DNA from: Escherichia coli
Lineage (GTDB): Bacteria > Pseudomonadota > Gammaproteobacteria > Enterobacterales > Enterobacteriaceae
Assembly (NCBI RefSeq): GCF_030013205.1
Contig: NZ_CP122648.1
DNA length: 64,000 nucleotides
Strand: one strand, 5' to 3'
Position 1 is the stretch's first letter; each line of letters opens with the position of its first letter. Made by a program: the position numbers. Positions 20,501 to 26,500 of this stretch are shown piece after piece.

Positions 20501-23500
20501 TAGGAAATCTTAGGGGCTGGTTGACACTTTCCGGCTTAAGACCTTAACAAATCTTAACATCGCAGGTTGACACACTTGACACTTTTTCGCGAAAAACCTT
20601 ATCAAACCTTAGCATTTCTAAGCATGGCAACTTGACACTTTTCGCGATTTTTTCGGCTTTTTGACGTGGTAAATCTGGCGAAAGGCCAGTAATGGCGGGG
20701 CTTACAGCGAGGTTGACACTTTTTCGCGTTCAGAGTGTAAAGTGTCAACCTGGCAAGCTGCTCAACTTGACACTTTTTGAGGTCATTGATGGCCTGATTT
20801 TTCCCACTCAGCCAGGGCGTTTAGTCCGGCTTCACTCCAGTTATCCAGCTCATCGGGACAATCACCTGCAACATAGCAGAGCTCACAACGCAGCATACGA
20901 ATTGCCAGCCTGGCATTTTCCCGAAAATCATACTGCTCAAAGTAATATTGCCCAGCATAATCCTCAAGGCAGATAGCACCATCATCAAGAAATTGCACTT
21001 CACAGCATAGTTCCCCGGCTGCATCCTGTACACGCTGCTGTATGTCATTGTCCGTTACTGGTGCAGGGATTTTACCGTCTCTGGCCTTAACTGCTTTCCA
21101 GAACTCGCCCCACGTCATTTCCAGCGTTCTCTCTGGCCACATTTCAGAAACTGTGTCTTTTCCCTGTGCTGGTGGGCTGTTCCGCTGCTCTGTCGCTTCC
21201 ACATCGATTTTTTTACCGGACATGACCACTTCGCCTTTCTCGATCCAGTCGTAAACTGTCTGGCGGCTTACGCCTTTGTGTTTGGCATATTCTGCCTTGC
21301 TCATAAACATGACACTTCCCCTCAGACTGTATTAATGCGCCGGAAAGCGCGTGTATTTAAATCATCCCAGGAACCGTTGAGCACCAATTAGTTGCGCGAA
21401 GTAATCGGCACCAGCGTTCCGAACAATTTCCAACTTAACGTTCTGATCATTGTTTCCTGCTGCAGGGACAATCCCACGATTCATAGCCAGCGCCCGGATC
21501 ACATCTTCAACACTTACAGCTTTAGCGGCAGCACCATTTTCATGGTTAATAATGCCCTGAATTAGCTTTTTCATGACCTCAAAATTAGAACCATCGATTT
21601 TCTCCTTAACACCTAATCCGGTGTACTGAGAGAGATAGCTTTTATAGGACGATGTGTTATTTCCATCAGATGAAGGGGCATAAATATCAATAATCTGATC
21701 AATCGTATTTTTGCCGCGTTTCAGGTATAGCATTACCTGCCGATCTAAGGCGGCAATGCCTTCCAGCATCGTCGGGAAGCTGGCAAAACGGGCATTTGGC
21801 CCCGATTCCAGGGTAGCCCCTTTTTGTCCTGCGAAATTAAGATTTCCGGGATTGTTATTCCTGATCCCTCTGGATAAATATGCAGATCTGTTTACTTGAT
21901 TTGAAAATCCCTGCAATCCTCCAGGCCAGACCTTACCCGGATTGTTTTTTTGCCACTCCTGCACTTCGTTAAAATAATCAAAGTTGAAACGCCCCTCCAG
22001 CCCTTTCATTTCCTCACTGGTGGTAGGTGTGTCATTTGTAGGAATAGCCAATCCAGCTACTGTTCCGGCTGTAGCCCCAAGAAGACTTCCACCAACAACA
22101 CGGGCGGCAACTCCGGTCGTTGTGGCTGCCACAGCACCAACTCTCGATGGTCCAGCAAGTACTGCGGCCCCAAAAAGCCAGGGATGTTCAACCGCAAAAC
22201 CAACAAACCCGCTAAGTGCCTTAACAACCTTTGCAACGTTTTCGGCAAAATTGTTCAGGTCGTTATTAAAATCCGGGCCATTTACGTACTTACCAAGTTT
22301 ATCCAGCCCCGTTTCTACATCCGTCAGAATCCTTTTAAAGTTCTCACCATTCATGAAATTCAGGGCAGCATTCGTGGCACCATCAGACATTCTGATTAAA
22401 GCGTCTTCATTCCCCGCCATTGCTCCCTGAAATCCGCTGGTAAGCCGATCCCAGTTTTTTTCCAGGTTACTGGTAATATTCTGATATTTACTTGTATGTG
22501 CAGAGGTCAGTAACGAATCATTCTGCGCTGCACGTAACGAAAACTCTTTGTTGAGTTCAGGTATTTTGTCCTGATATTTGACTAACTGGTTAGTAAGACC
22601 AAAATTTACCCATCCAAGCCCCATTCCTCTGAAATTGCTCTGGGTAAGACCAGTTCCCTGATATTCCTTTGCCAGCGCTGCAACCTTTTTCAGGAATACA
22701 GGCAGGTTTTCAGTCGCGTTTTTATCAGGATTTAGCCCCAGATTAAGCAGGCCGACGCGGGCAGGATGCGATATATCATTTTGTGCTGCTGCCAGTGTAT
22801 TGAGCACATTGCCAACACCGGAAAAATAAGGCGAATAAGTGCTTTCTGCCGCCTTTAACTCTCCTGGCGTTGCCACCAGCTCATCTGCATTTTTCTGTTT
22901 CTCTACAACACTACGGGACATCATGCCAAAGCCAAACGGTCCGGCAACGCCCATAACCGAGAGTTTTGTTCCCCACGATACGGTTGTTTTAAACAGGTTG
23001 TTTAATCTTGAAGTGGTCGTCTGTAGTGTAGAATTGATCTGCTTGTAAGTTTTCAGCGTCTGTTGGGCATTTTTCCCCAGCCCGCTGAGATACTTATCAA
23101 ACATCGTTTCGCCGCGACCTTTATAGTTGCTTACGAACGAATCTGCTGTTTTTCCGCTGCCGACAAAGCGCCCTTTTTCGTCCCTCACTCTCCCGGATAC
23201 ATCCGGTCCTGTCCGACCAGATTTTGCCGCCACGGGTAAGCCTGCCCCCACGCTGCGCCCACTTTGCCCCGGTATTTTCATCGGCGTTCCGGCAGGGCCG
23301 ATCATCAGCCCGTTGCGATACTTTTCAAAAATTGCCTCAAGCCGTTTGAGGTGTTCTTCATTAACGTCCAGCGTCAGAACTGGCATCTGATTACCTGACA
23401 TTACAATACTCCTGCGGGATTTTTGAATTTGAGCAGCTCACGAAACTGAGCTGCTGTTTTTACATTCAGACCGGAATCTGCACAGATGTCTCTGAATCCG

Positions 23501-26500
23501 GCTCCGGCTGAGTAGTCGAGGATGTCGCTGATGACGTGTTCGCCGTCGCGCCAGAACTGACGGCAGGCTTCAATGTCGGCAATGAATCGATCCATTCCGT
23601 AAGACTCAAGGACGAGCATTGAGTGCTCCATATTCCATTCACCGCATCCATAGTCCCCTTCGTCTGCTCCGGGGAATTTATCGACGAGACGCATGTAAAA
23701 AAAACAAGTTCACCCGCCACTTCGTCCAAATCAACGATTTCACGCTCCAGCGCCATATCGAGAGGGATTGTGTCGTAGCCTTTGCCCTCCACTGGATAAA
23801 CAAGGTTTGCCAGGCGAATAATTTCGTTTATGAGCGTATTACGTATGCCTTTCTCCCCATCCCATAAACCGGAGTCACGGGAGATTTTCTCCAGCATAAG
23901 GCAGGCAACGCGCGGACCCGCAACAACACCAAGACCTTCAGAAAAAATGGCAGAAAAGGTTTTACTCAGGATGAAGAAATGCTCTTTAAACACCTCTTTG
24001 CTGATCGGCGTGGCATGGAGCCAGCCATTACCCTTTTCAGTGCGCACAGGGATAATCAGATTTAAGTTTTTAGCAATTTTCATGATTCACTCACTCTGTT
24101 TTTTTCCAGTTGATCCAGCCGCCCGGATATTTCTTCCAGTTTTTCCAGAGCTGGCTTGCAGGCCGCATCAATAACTTCACGGACCATTCCGGCGAGCTGT
24201 TCTTCTTCTGTCGGCGTTGTTACTTCCACACCTGATGGTTTCCCGCCCTTATCCCATACGCCCAACGGTACGAGCGCAACGTGATCGATAAGAAATGGCG
24301 TACCCTCAATGAAAAAATTGTCCTCGCCCATTACATCAGGAACTTCTGCCCCACCGGACGCACCACAAAACACAACCGACGGGCTGGTGGATACCTCCCC
24401 CCGTGCTTTCTGGATGTAATCGATGATTTCCTGCCCGTAAATCCGGCATACACCCCACACCTCGTCACCGCGAATATACGGCAACATGACGGTGCCAATA
24501 ATGCGCGACCGTTCGCCAACGTCTTCAATGGTTTTGCCTTCGGGATGGTCGATAATGACGGGTACTCCGGCGCAACGTTCCAGGAACTGCGGATTGAGAT
24601 AAGTTTGCGGTGAACGCCAGACAAATTCTTTTTCTTCGGCGCGGTAGGCCATGCCAGTCCCTGTAATACGCAGGTTAACCAGCCACATGTTGGAGAACTG
24701 ATAAGGCGACGGTAGCTGACCGTCCCGAATCTGCTTTGCCGCCTCAATTTCTGTTAAAAGCATAATGTCACCCGGTTATAATCAATAAGCCCCGCCAAAT
24801 CCGGCAGGGCTGAAATCAGCACGTTTTTCATGCCCCCGCGAGGCTTGCAACGTTAATTTTGACCAGGCGACGGGGAGGGATTTTGAAAGCACTAAGCCAG
24901 TTATTCGGATCCCCCTGATATTCAGTAATCCGGCGCCCGGCTTCATCCATCCTGACTTTTTTAGTCAAATAACCCGGCGTGTTTTCCACGGCCCACTGAG
25001 CACTTTCCTGAGCAGCCTTGTAAATCTGATCTTCCAGCACCGCCAGCGTTGCAGAATCTGAAACGGAACGAATATCCACATCACTGAATTTTTTAGCCAG
25101 CTTCTGTGCGCCAATTAATGCACGCTTGCGGTAATCCATCGACTTTTCACCAGCAAACGGGGCCGGAGCTCGACGGCCCATATTGCTGTATGCGGAATCC
25201 GCTTTGGCCTGGGCTTCTGCCAGTGAGGATTCATCTTCGACTGACGCGACGATGTTTTGATTAGCGTTATCCTCTTTTATGAAATCCTGTGCGGGGATCG
25301 CATTCAGAATTTCGATAATCTCCTGCGGAGTGCTGCCCTGCGACTCTGACAGAGCGTTAACCACCTCCATCAGTTTTAATCGCAAATCTTCTTTGCTTGC
25401 TGGCATTTTTACCACCTCTCTTTTTTCACCAAAAAATCACGACCATCAGGCCGGACGTTCTACGGGATAAAGCGCCCGCTGCATTAAACGCCGGGCGACC
25501 TCATGAATGCTCGGAGCAATCCCCAGCGGAGAATTGCGGCGTTCCTCGTCCTGGATGCGCTGTAATGCTTCAATCTGATCACGAGCGAGTAAAACAGGTT
25601 TCACGCTGGCTTTTCTCATAGTCATATCTCCTGAACAAAACAACGATTATGATTGCACAAACTGAAATGACGATCTACATCATTGCAATTTATGAAACAA
25701 TAACGCATGATGATCGCGTTCTTCCCATTGACTTCAATCACCTGAAAAACAAAGCCCGCAACACTTCTGGCTGCGGGCTTTTTACTGGCACAAAAAAGCC
25801 GGGAAAAATCCCGGCCTCCGTCACTGACTGCAATTTTTCGATCCAGGGTATTTCCTGAATGCCTTACCATTGGGCTGATGTAATCCCATCCCGGCATGTG
25901 CCCGGCTGATGGTTTCGCGCATCTCCCCGAAATTATCCTGCCGTGCTGGTGGGCGTGCTGCCTTGCGGATACATTCCGCGCGACGTTTTGCCGCCTGTTC
26001 CCGTGCCTTGTCATCATTCGCCAGCATGATGACCTCAGCCCACCGCGCCGCCGCTCTCCGGTACAGACCACGCGCTTCCAGTGCTTCCGCTTTGCTGTCG
26101 TGAATCATGCGCCTGTTTTCTCCTTTGCTACCCGGCGCTGACGTTTGCGCTTCTCATTCAGCGCCACCAGCCGCGTTTCTGCGTCCTGTTGTTCCTGTGG
26201 TGTCACCTCGCCGCACGGCTGGCCTTTCAGGTCGTAGCGTACCCCACCAGCCATTAAGGCGCGGTAATAGCGCGGACACTGTGCATAAGATGCCAGCGTC
26301 GCACGCAATGCCCCTGGACCGAATGCCAGCCCCCTGACGGCGAGATCCTGCATCAGGTCGTCGAATATCCCCACCTTAAGCGGCTTCGGTGCTTCCCGGC
26401 TGAATAATTCAGGCCACAACTCAGTGAGGCGGTTAATGCGCCTGCGGTTTTTGCGCTGGCGCTTGGTCATATGCCGCCACAGTGTCGCCCCTGTGGGCTT

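What the first reader, a model, noticed from the sequence alone, without database searches (positions are those of the whole stretch)
21362..24083. Tail-chaperone-like -1 frameshift pair coupled to a tape-measure-like gene inside a satellite that has no other virion genes
Two overlapping minus-strand ORFs (0-frame 23466..24083 and -1 frame 23401..23694) meet exactly at a U8 run (plus coords 23697..23704), which contains the canonical X XXY YYZ slippery heptamer U UUU UUU. The -1 frame ORF then ends in a TAATG overlap with a 679-aa protein that has a coiled-coil N-terminus, a Gly/Ala-rich hydrophobic core and a separate C-terminal domain (RGIRNNNPGNLNF...). That gene order (G, G-T by -1 slip, then tape measure) is the hallmark of tail assembly chaperone plus tape measure modules of tailed phages. 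Here it sits in a ~13 kb integrative island with no capsid, portal, large terminase, tube, sheath or lysis genes. A satellite carrying only this part of a tail module could be re-measuring or interfering with helper-phage tail assembly, which I do not know as a described mechanism for this element type. The 0-frame continuation past the slip site is S/T-rich and looks non-globular, so the frameshifted product may be the main functional one.
Basis: partly seen in the sequence, partly recalled or inferred. Interest (0 to 1): 0.8.

Follow-up and report, generated by a model that had tools for sequence, protein, structure and literature searches.

The report
Satellite island carrying helper tail-core genes
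A 13-kb phage-parasitic island in E. coli carries its own copies of a helper phage's tail chaperone, whose sequence points to a programmed ribosomal slip, and of its tail tape-measure gene; this arrangement was recently shown in cholera-phage satellites, but I found no description of it for this kind of island.

Summary
On the minus strand, a 205-aa ORF and a -1 ORF overlap at a T8 run, in frame as GT-T TTT TTT. The -1 ORF ends in TAATG at the start of a 679-aa gene. This is not a sequencing error. The same heptamer, at the same codon position, with an open -1 extension abutting the next gene, occurs in myoviruses only 30-35% identical. There the pair sits between the tube gene and the baseplate genes.

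The pair is therefore a G/GT-type tail chaperone plus a tape measure with a C-terminal cell-wall-hydrolase domain.

The host element is a 13.4-kb PICI-like satellite at tRNA-Pro. Its family co-occurs strongly with Rac-SA53-like myovirus prophages.

The chaperone/tape-measure pair is a gene-precise 2.8-kb cassette in a variable slot. Sister islands have the slot empty, or filled with a helper-like baseplate hub.

Island tape measures are intact in 14 of 14 copies. They are mosaic with helper alleles and about the same length, so "re-measuring" is not supported.

Satellite-encoded chaperone plus tape measure building chimeric tails was shown for Vibrio PLEs (Nature 2026). This is a new member of that kind; its function is inferred, not shown.

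The parts
19474..32870 (.). Whole PICI-like satellite island (~13.4 kb) between yejO and tRNA-Pro/yejM
   Evidence: An imperfect direct repeat TGGTCG(G)CACGAGAG lies at ~19474-19490 and at the 3' end of tRNA-Pro. tRNA-Pro itself is at 32854-32930. The RefSeq annotation of the identical ETEC4079 region lists integrase, HTH, Icd-like, DUF4222, RepA helicase, ProQ/FinO and PerC genes.
21311..24088 (-). 2.8-kb tail-core cassette (G/GT + tape measure + 51-nt spacer), inserted relative to sister islands that lack it
   Evidence: blastn against the cassette-free island of FDAARGOS_1058: homology stops 5 nt before the G ATG and resumes exactly at the start codon of the 175-aa gene. Against a helper prophage, homology runs from the G ATG (24083) to 21472.
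23466..24083 (-). Tail assembly chaperone G, 0-frame product (205 aa)
23697..23703 (-). Slippery heptamer T TTT TTT (within T8 run 23697-23704)
   Evidence: Read directly from the sequence. The same heptamer sits in the same frame at the same position in 5 phages down to 30% identity, and in 13 of 14 islands.
23401..23697 (-). -1 frame extension (T domain, 98 codons); the fusion G-T product is 227 aa (24083..23697 then 23697..23401)
   Evidence: phrog_14324 over its full length. 93% identical to the helper prophage. The stop overlaps the tape-measure ATG.
21362..23401 (-). Tape measure protein (679 aa)
   Evidence: phrog_7694 over its full length. It occupies the tape-measure position in five myoviruses. 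88% identical to, and mosaic with, helper alleles.
21482..21904 (-). C-terminal cell-wall hydrolase domain of the tape measure (aa ~500-640, RGIRNNNPGN type)
   Evidence: PHROG matches to the C-terminal part of tape measure, endolysin and injection-transglycosylase families, E 1e-22 to 1e-31. PDB 9vvp_L Gp29 at 1.6e-12 and 7q47 endolysin at 1.3e-10. tblastn matches T7-type internal virion protein D and Chi endolysin.
21362..21471 (-). Island-specific 3' end of the tape measure gene (tail ...AGADYFAQLIGAQRFLG)
   Evidence: There is no nucleotide homology to the helper here. All 7 E. coli-type helper tape measures end in ...AQLAG[MT]QQIPG. All 14 island copies carry one of three other endings.
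24080..24763 (-). DUF2213-short gene (227 aa), anchor gene of the island family; its stop overlaps the G start (ATGA)
   Evidence: 54% identical to residues 3-226 of the helper's 440-aa DUF2213 protein. Weak PHROG match to head-maturation protease. 221-229-aa forms occur in E. coli, Salmonella, Citrobacter, Enterobacter, Pantoea and K. aerogenes.
24828..25406 (-). 'NUDIX hydrolase' of RefSeq: a homologue of the C-terminal part of the same helper protein
   Evidence: 64% identical to residues ~305-433 of the helper protein. No Pfam match at all.
20783..21310 (-). 175-aa gene with an N-terminal HTH (TerS/excisionase-like), flanking the slot on the other side
   Evidence: Weak PHROG and NCBIfam HTH matches only. 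It follows DUF2213-short directly in cassette-free islands. It is present in 164 E. coli genomes.
27114..28529 (-). RepA-family helicase (replication gene), with iterons just downstream at 26923-27116
   Evidence: RefSeq annotation. Three TTCCTCACTTTTTG repeats spaced ~84 nt apart.
31403..32644 (-). Tyrosine integrase next to tRNA-Pro

Best explanation
The two overlapping ORFs are a G/GT-type tail assembly chaperone. Most ribosomes finish the 205-aa G. A minority slip -1 on T TTT TTT and make a 227-aa G-T fusion, whose T domain would bind the product of the next gene, a 679-aa tape measure with a cell-wall-hydrolase domain.

The trio is a helper-derived cassette sitting in a variable slot of the late operon of a PICI-like satellite of Rac-SA53-like temperate myoviruses.

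Proposed mechanism: when the helper is induced, the satellite expresses its own chaperone and tape measure. These load onto helper-made baseplates, and helper tube and sheath polymerise around them. The result is chimeric tails of normal length whose lumen and ejection protein is the satellite's allele, as shown for Vibrio PLEs. The likely pay-off is independence from, or replacement of, the helper's highly variable tape-measure allele. That would matter for compatibility, or for escape from tape-measure-targeted exclusion or defence.

What is shown: gene identities, the conserved slip site, the cassette structure, the family distribution and the link with the helper.
What is inferred: expression, actual frameshifting, incorporation into tails and any benefit.

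My confidence in the identities is about 0.9. The 0.5 given below is for the chimeric-tail function.
For: - Slip site and two-frame architecture are conserved in 12 of 12 phage homologues, down to 30% identity.
- Synteny is sheath (phrog_205), tube, G/GT, tape measure, hub (phrog_196), baseplate J in pPE4, Rac-SA53, Chronis, vB_YenM, PdC23 and E. coli prophages.
- The cassette has gene-precise borders inside an operon.
- It is present in islands with different integrases, att sites and primases in E. coli and Salmonella.
- 14 of 14 island tape measures are intact and 13 of 14 G genes have T8.
- Island-to-island dN/dS is 0.14-0.17 for the tape measure and 0.07-0.10 for G.
- Blocks of 100% identity with the co-resident helper allele show ongoing exchange.
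- Sister islands carry, in the same slot, an 88-aa protein plus a baseplate hub that are 72-78% identical to the helper's. This mirrors the PLE set of chaperone, tape measure and hub.
- 16-18 of 33 island-bearing E. coli genomes also carry the helper-type sheath, which is found in 84 of 5426 genomes. The expected number is 0.5 and the hypergeometric p is about 1e-21.
- In PLEs, deleting tmp cuts transduction by 96-99.9%, and the satellite tape measure is found in virions.
Against: - There is no expression, virion-composition or transfer data for this family.
- The cassette is optional. About half of the family has an empty slot, and those islands co-occur with the helper equally often.
- At least two independent deletions of the cassette exist, and one copy has T7.
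- Intactness and low dN/dS could be maintained by gene conversion from functional helper genes rather than by selection in the island.
- Tails normally assemble separately from heads, so it is unclear how a satellite-specific tail would end up preferentially on satellite capsids.
- No Pfam family matches G, G-T or the tape measure.
Confidence: 0.5

Rival explanations
1. Interference or defence. The island's tape measure and chaperone act as dominant-negative competitors. They enter helper (or related invading phage) tail assembly and yield defective tails. This lowers phage yield to the benefit of the island or the host population, in the spirit of the tail-assembly blockers Tab, Tai and Rta.
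For: - All 14 island tape measures lack the ...QQIPG ending that is invariant in 7 helper alleles, even where the rest is 100% identical.
- The tape measure is a known target and weak point of tail assembly.
- ETEC4079 carries three such islands and apparently no helper, which would fit a defensive role.
Against: - Satellites need tails for their own spread.
- The different ending is explained more simply by recombination geometry. The right-hand crossover must fall inside the gene, because no homology exists downstream.
- More distant phages also vary after the conserved AQL motif.
- The island keeps a complete chaperone and slip site, which is unnecessary for a mere poison.
Confidence: 0.2
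2. Passenger DNA. The cassette is a piece of helper genome captured by recombination and kept looking intact by repeated gene conversion from helper prophages. It has no role in the island's life cycle.
For: - The cassette shows presence/absence polymorphism.
- There are two independent internal deletions and one T7 copy.
- 100%-identical blocks are shared with the co-resident helper.
- Cassette-free islands are equally associated with the helper.
Against: - Gene-precise borders preserve operon structure and translational coupling (ATGA, TAATG).
- The cassette is found in islands at five or more insertion sites and in two genera, with 14 of 14 tape measures intact. These include islands in genomes without a helper, such as STEC346 and ETEC4079.
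- A second, different tail-core cassette (hub) occupies the same slot, at 72-78% identity. That is too diverged to be recent debris.
Confidence: 0.2
3. Artefact. T8 is a homopolymer sequencing error, and the two ORFs are one ordinary gene, or a pseudogene in a decaying prophage remnant.
For: Homopolymers are error-prone, and one related island (RM9088) reads T7 and is annotated 'frameshifted'.
Against: - T8 (T7 in PdC23), in the same frame, is found in independent assemblies of 13 islands and in all helper prophages and phages examined, with both downstream frames conserved as protein.
- PHROGs holds the two ORFs as separate families.
- The element has an integrase, a replication module with iterons, att repeats and a conserved family architecture across genera.
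Confidence: 0.02

Closest known systems
Vibrio cholerae PLE tail genes (TAC, TMP, BhuB) that build chimeric tails with phage ICP1 (Mathur et al., bioRxiv 2025 / Nature 2026; PMC11838301, PMC12987554)
   Same: - A satellite without tube, sheath or fibre genes encodes its own tail chaperone and tape measure, and some members also encode a baseplate hub.
- Here the same three kinds of gene occur in one slot of the family.
- The best PDB structural match of the G model is the PLE1 chaperone (5ir0).
   Different: - PLE proteins are only 19-41% identical to ICP1's, are present in all PLEs, and the PLE11 tape measure is 95 aa shorter, giving 10-nm shorter tails.
- Here the genes are 85-93% identical to helper alleles and mosaic with them, about the same length, and optional. 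Chaperone plus tape measure and the hub are alternative fillings of the slot.
- The backbone is PICI-like and the helper is a temperate myovirus.
- Function is shown for PLE and only inferred here.
Lambda gpG/gpGT and the conserved -1 frameshift of tail assembly chaperones in long-tailed phages (Xu, Hendrix & Duda 2004; my own knowledge)
   Same: Two products share an N-terminus. A -1 slip occurs on an X XXY YYZ heptamer. The gene lies immediately upstream of the tape measure. The extension ends at the tape-measure start.
   Different: There is no detectable sequence similarity and no Pfam family. The heptamer is T TTT TTT rather than lambda's G GGA AAG. The 0-frame continues ~75 codons past the slip site and ends in a conserved IP[VS] motif.
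Tail module of Rac-SA53 / vB_Apl-pPE4-type myoviruses and their E. coli prophages (KU052037, PP818812)
   Same: These are the direct source. G is 82-90%, the T extension 75-93% and the tape measure up to 88-93% identical, with the same slip site.
   Different: In the phage the pair is flanked by the tube gene and a 222-aa gene. In the island it is flanked by DUF2213-short and the 175-aa gene. The last 5-37 codons of the tape measure are island-specific.
Gram-negative PICIs such as EcCICFT073 (Fillol-Salom et al. 2018, PMC6092414)
   Same: Integrase at one end, an AlpA-type HTH, a primase/helicase with iterons downstream, a size of ~13 kb, tRNA or other specific att sites, and no structural or lysis genes of its own.
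   Different: Described E. coli PICIs exploit siphoviruses (lambda, phi80), and I found none reported to carry tail genes. This family tracks a myovirus and carries head-module and tail-core homologues of it.
cf-PICIs and mycobacterial EPIPs with predicted tape-measure genes (PMC12987554 Extended Data Fig. 10; 10.64898/2025.12.02.691453)
   Same: These are satellites with a predicted tmp gene.
   Different: They also encode capsid, portal or connector proteins, which this island does not. EPIP tails are longer and variable in length.
Tail-assembly defences Tab, Tai and Rta (PMC10884400, PMC11364771, PMC11838301)
   Same: They act on the tape-measure and tail-assembly step, and some are carried by satellites and prophages.
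   Different: They are small, unrelated proteins that block assembly. They are not tape-measure or chaperone homologues.

Membership tests
Tail assembly chaperone G/GT | Gene lies between the tail tube gene and the tape-measure gene in long-tailed phages | tested here: met
   Homologues in pPE4, Rac-SA53, Chronis, vB_YenM, PdC23 and E. coli prophages lie between the tube and the tape measure. In the island the gene is directly upstream of the tape measure, and the tube gene is absent.
Tail assembly chaperone G/GT | Two products from one start through a -1 slip on an X XXY YYZ heptamer, with the extension ending near the tape-measure start | tested here: met
   The sequence signature is present and conserved down to 30% identity. 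Whether ribosomes actually slip cannot be tested with these tools.
Tail assembly chaperone G/GT | Tail-chaperone fold | tested here: inconclusive
Tail assembly chaperone G/GT | Match to a curated sequence family | tested here: not met
   No Pfam match, even at E 10. The PHROG families 11810 and 14324 are 'unknown function'. No PDB sequence match.
Tape measure protein | Large gene immediately after the chaperone and before the baseplate hub genes | tested here: met
Tape measure protein | Sequence-family match and a cell-wall hydrolase domain, as in many tape measures | tested here: met
   The C-terminal domain matches phrog_2276 'tail length tape measure protein' at 3e-31, and endolysin and transglycosylase families. 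The full-length family phrog_7694 is unannotated. PDB matches to endolysin-like domains.
Tape measure protein | Present in the tail lumen, with length setting tail length | not testable with these tools
   This needs virion mass spectrometry and electron microscopy.
PICI-type phage satellite | Integrase, AlpA-type regulator, own replication gene with an adjacent iteron origin, ~10-15 kb, site-specific att, no virion or lysis genes | tested here: met
   The same backbone occurs in six genera. The exception is the tail-core cassette itself and two diverged head-module homologues.
PICI-type phage satellite | Induced, replicated and packaged by a helper phage | not testable with these tools
   The only evidence is indirect. 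It co-occurs with Rac-SA53-like prophages (16-18 of 33 against 0.5 expected), shares and exchanges genes with them, and 10-16 kb copies are listed in IMG/VR.
PLE-type chimeric-tail system | Satellite encodes chaperone plus tape measure (with or without a hub) while lacking tube and sheath | tested here: met
PLE-type chimeric-tail system | Satellite tape measure is incorporated into transducing particles and needed for transfer | not testable with these tools
   Shown for PLE1, PLE4 and PLE11 only.
PLE-type chimeric-tail system | Evolutionary membership in PLEs (sequence relatedness) | tested here: not met
   No sequence similarity to the PLE chaperone, only a weak fold match at 12% identity. 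The backbone is PICI-like, so this is an analogue, not a PLE.
cf-PICI | Own capsid, portal, protease and head-tail connector genes | tested here: not met
   None is present in the island.
P4-like satellite | sid, psu and delta capsid-size and transactivation genes | not tested
   None is annotated in RefSeq. Some relatives have a P4-alpha-like D5/Pox_D5 primase. I made no dedicated search.

The most novel reading that the evidence does not exclude
This Enterobacterial satellite family has a dedicated, swappable 'tail-core slot' between DUF2213-short and the 175-aa gene. It loads the slot with helper-derived inner-tail parts, either chaperone plus tape measure or a small protein plus baseplate hub, and keeps refreshing them by recombination with whichever helper is resident. 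This lets the satellite ride in tails whose lumen-hub interface is its own. Such tails might be resistant to tape-measure- or hub-targeted exclusion, or preferentially matched to satellite particles. If so, satellite remodelling of tails would be a general and modular strategy rather than a PLE peculiarity.
Probability: 0.3. Interest if true: 0.65.

Novelty: new member of a known kind. Interest (0 to 1): 0.5.

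Why it matters
Satellites were long thought to take helper tails as they come. 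The PLE work changed that for one Vibrio system.

If this family works the same way, tail remodelling would be shown in a second, unrelated satellite lineage, in the best genetic model organism. It would come with ready-made natural controls:

- near-isogenic islands with the slot empty, filled with chaperone plus tape measure, or filled with a hub;
- deletion derivatives;
- strains holding both helper and island with tape-measure alleles 44-93% identical.

That makes two questions directly testable: why a satellite wants its own tape measure, and how it gets used.

The frameshift itself is textbook and adds nothing new.

Tried and rejected
- **Curated families.** Pfam scans of the G-T fusion and the tape measure found nothing significant. 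A PDB sequence search with G-T found nothing. NCBIfam on island proteins gave only weak HTH, ProQ and Icd matches.
- **Frameshift-stimulating RNA structure.** MFE z-scores run from -1.2 to +1.5 in five lineages. A possible pseudoknot in the window (CGUCU/AGACG plus UCCCC/GGGGA, seen by eye) is not conserved in Rac-SA53. I therefore claim no stimulatory structure.
- **The 'NUDIX' ORF as a scaffold C-terminus.** I first read it that way, by analogy with protease-scaffold fusions. This is not supported. More distant relatives of the helper protein carry a real NUDIX domain, and the island ORF has no Pfam match. I therefore call it only a homologue of the helper protein's C-terminal part.
- **'Re-measuring'.** Rejected on tape-measure lengths.
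- **Do cassette-bearing islands co-occur with the helper more often than cassette-free ones?** No visible difference: roughly 8 of 14 against 8-9 of 14.
- **Island-specific C-terminal tail as evidence of altered function.** Downgraded, because recombination geometry explains it and distant phages vary there too.
- **Literature.** Searches on PICI, tape measure, DUF2213, Rac-SA53, PerC/ProQ and baseplate hub found no description of this island family.
- **Not done.** The metagenome and GTDB-wide scans and the 1.84-billion-protein search were not used.

Full report
**1. The observation**

The window is E. coli chromosome, 100% identical to strain ETEC4079. On the minus strand, a 205-aa ORF (23466-24083) and a 97-codon ORF in the -1 frame (23401-23694) overlap. 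A T8 run lies at 23697-23704.

In the 0 frame the text reads GAA CTT GTT TTT TTT ACA. The canonical X XXY YYZ heptamer T TTT TTT is therefore correctly phased, with F128 and F129 in the P and A sites. A -1 slip would give ...AGELVFF-YMRLVDKF...

The -1 ORF stops in TAATG, overlapping the start of a 679-aa gene (21362-23401).

**2. Is it real or a homopolymer error?**

- PHROGs holds the two ORFs as separate phage families. The 205-aa product matches phrog_11810 over its whole length, and the -1 ORF matches phrog_14324 over its whole length.
- tblastn of the fused product finds 12 phages, and every match is in two pieces, that is, two frames.
- I read five of them. pPE4 and Rac-SA53 are 74-77% identical to the fusion. 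Klebsiella Chronis, Yersinia vB_YenM_30.14 and Pantoea PdC23 are 30-35% identical. All five have T TTT TTT in the 0 frame at nt 374-380, a -1 ORF of 102-121 codons open from just before it, and its stop at the start of the next large gene.
- The 0-frame tail past the slip site is also conserved in these distant phages. It contains a ~45-residue block and a terminal IP[VS]. Both products therefore look functional, which speaks against the idea that only the fusion matters.
- Across 14 island copies, 13 have T8. One (RM9088) has T7 and is annotated as frameshifted.
- I found no significant RNA structure downstream of the slip site.

**3. What the genes are**

In the complete myovirus vB_Apl-pPE4 and in Rac-SA53, Chronis, vB_YenM, PdC23 and E. 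coli prophages, the gene order is sheath, tube, this ORF pair, the large gene, then baseplate hub and baseplate J. The sheath matches phrog_205 and the hub phrog_196. That is the chaperone and tape-measure position.

- The 679-aa protein matches phrog_7694 end to end.
- Its residues ~500-640 match the C-terminal part of tape-measure, endolysin and injection-transglycosylase families, solved endolysin-like domains, and T7-type internal virion protein D and Chi endolysin.
- Pfam finds nothing for either protein.

**4. The element**

The genes lie in a 13.4-kb island bounded by an imperfect repeat of the tRNA-Pro 3' end. The island carries:

- an integrase, an AlpA-like HTH and an Icd-like gene;
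- DUF4222, and a RepA helicase followed by iterons;
- ProQ/FinO and PerC.

This is a PICI-like satellite backbone. Just upstream of G lie two genes that are 64% and 54% identical to the C-terminal and N-terminal parts of the helper's 440-aa DUF2213 head-module protein, split into two genes and in swapped order. "No other virion-related genes" is therefore not quite right.

The short DUF2213 gene (221-229 aa) marks a family found in E. coli, Salmonella, Citrobacter, Enterobacter, Pantoea and K. aerogenes, down to 55% identity and always on the same backbone. IMG/VR lists 17 copies of 10-16 kb.

**5. The cassette**

Compared with a sister island (FDAARGOS_1058), the window has a 2,778-nt insert (21311-24088). 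It starts 5 nt before the G ATG and ends exactly at the start codon of a 175-aa HTH gene. Compared with a helper prophage, nucleotide homology runs from the G ATG to 110 nt before the tape-measure stop.

Within the family the slot takes three states:

| State | Content of the slot | Examples |
|---|---|---|
| a | Empty | E. coli ARS-C101, FDAARGOS_1058; Enterobacter; 10 IMG/VR copies |
| b | G/GT plus tape measure | ETEC4079 (three islands at three att sites), STEC346, UMNF18, RM9088, ETEC1732, STEC005, a Salmonella, four IMG/VR copies |
| c | An 88-aa protein plus a baseplate hub, 78% and 72% identical to the helper's | OkiPb01676, Citrobacter S-77, two IMG/VR copies |

Among 5,426 complete E. 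coli genomes, 33 carry the family. Of these, 14 have junction b, about 18 have junction a, and 3 have junction c. Two independent internal deletions of cassette b exist.

**6. Relation to the helper**

- The helper-type sheath gene is in 84 of 5,426 genomes and is 95-99% conserved.
- 16-18 of the 33 island genomes have it, against 0.5 expected. The hypergeometric p is about 1e-21 and is not corrected for phylogeny.
- Island and helper tape measures are mosaics of each other, with blocks of 100% identity. In ETEC1732, residues ~140-630 equal the co-resident helper allele. Alternative C-terminal hydrolase domains are also shared between islands and helpers.
- In four co-resident pairs, identity is 88, 44, 85 and 93%. 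Lengths differ by only -7, +30, -12 and -11 aa, so the island does not re-measure tails.
- All 14 island tape measures are intact. Island-to-island dN/dS is 0.14-0.17, and 0.07-0.10 for G. Gene conversion from the helper could contribute to this.
- All 7 E. coli-type helper alleles end in AQLAG[MT]QQIPG. All 14 island alleles carry one of three other endings. The simplest reason is that the right-hand crossover has to fall inside the gene. A functional meaning at the tape-measure/hub interface is possible but unproven.

**7. Mechanism**

Best supported is that the cassette is expressed with the island's late genes when a Rac-SA53-like helper is active. G and G-T chaperone the island's tape measure onto helper baseplates, and helper tube and sheath complete a normal-length chimeric tail. 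This is what Mathur et al. showed for Vibrio PLEs. There the satellite tape measure and hub replace ICP1's in virions, and deleting tmp cuts transduction by 96-99.9%.

The steps from expression onwards are inference. The rivals are:

- interference by a dominant-negative tape measure (0.2);
- passenger DNA kept intact by gene conversion (0.2);
- artefact (0.02).

**8. Novelty**

The frameshift pair is a textbook feature. Satellite-encoded chaperone plus tape measure is now known for PLEs, and predicted tmp genes were noted in cf-PICIs and mycobacterial EPIPs.

I found no description of this Enterobacterial PICI-like family, of its association with a myovirus, or of its variable tail-core slot. 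I file it as a new member of a known kind. It is of moderate interest, mainly because it offers a tractable E. coli system with natural plus, minus and alternative cassette variants.

Noticed in passing
window 24080-25406 (-): The two genes upstream of G are diverged homologues (54% and 64%) of the N- and C-terminal parts of the helper's single 440-aa DUF2213 head-module protein. Here they are separate genes in swapped order. RefSeq calls one of them 'NUDIX hydrolase', but it has no Pfam match. They could be the island's capsid-manipulation genes.
   Followed up: partly
L020 7628-8931; L026 6748-8051; L038 10538-11838; L044 9095-10395: In sister islands (E. coli OkiPb01676, Citrobacter sp. S-77 and two IMG/VR contigs), the same slot holds an 88-aa protein plus a 345-aa baseplate hub (phrog_196) instead of chaperone plus tape measure. 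These are 78% and 72% identical to the helper's.
   Followed up: yes
L010 (ETEC4079 0.95-0.98 Mb) and L024 (ETEC4079 5.08-5.10 Mb): The window's own genome carries three islands of this family, at tRNA-Pro, tRNA-Gly and yifB. They have three different integrases, all carry the G/GT plus tape-measure cassette, and two have identical tape-measure proteins. No helper-type prophage showed up among the matches in this genome.
   Followed up: partly
L009 14546-15162: The RM9088 island has T7 instead of T8 at the slip site, and RefSeq marks the gene as frameshifted. This could be a homopolymer error, an inactivating mutation or phase variation.
   Followed up: partly
L023 4497-4751; L043 8898-9032: There are two independent deletion derivatives of the cassette. 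In ETEC6335, G codon ~84 is fused to the last ~15 tape-measure codons. In an IMG/VR copy, DUF2213-short is fused to the last 45 tape-measure codons.
   Followed up: partly
window 23466-23480 and helper loci (e.g. L008 12891-12910): The 0-frame G product ends in ...QIPV (IPS in distant phages), and helper tape measures end in ...QQIPG. This shared C-terminal 'IP' motif might dock in the same site. Island tape measures lack it.
   Followed up: no
L014 10724-20666; L027 6675-12678: In Pantoea agglomerans and Citrobacter braakii, the related island ends with a 108-113-aa Sf6-type small terminase and a 275-311-aa gene. It then directly abuts helper-type head genes that start at the portal, with no large terminase in between. 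This is unexplained. It could be a tandem or nested arrangement, or a hybrid.
   Followed up: no
window 26923-27116 and 20549-20782: Three ~84-nt-spaced TTCCTCACTTTTTG iterons lie just downstream of the RepA helicase gene and are a likely origin. Several TTGACACTTTTT repeats lie just downstream of the 175-aa HTH gene and are a possible packaging or regulatory site.
   Followed up: no
window 19552-19577 and 32710-32735: A 26-nt direct repeat (CGTATAGCT[T/A]AACGTGTAGCTAAAAA) lies just inside both ends of the island, separate from the tRNA-derived att core. It may be a set of integrase arm-type sites.
   Followed up: no
window 20783-21310: The 175-aa HTH gene occurs in 164 complete E. coli genomes, including O104:H4 and 55989. 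That is far more than the 33 with DUF2213-short, so other island families share it. Some copies are annotated as MerR family.
   Followed up: partly
window 29190-30692 (-): A 500-codon open frame has only its last ~45 residues matching the Icd-like cell-division-inhibitor domain. RefSeq annotates only a partial pseudogene here.
   Followed up: no
helper loci L008, L011, L012, L056, L057: In helper prophages the sheath region is 95-99% identical across 84 genomes. The adjacent chaperone and tape-measure genes are far more variable and mosaic, with at least three alternative C-terminal hydrolase domains. This suggests diversifying pressure on the tape measure.
   Followed up: partly
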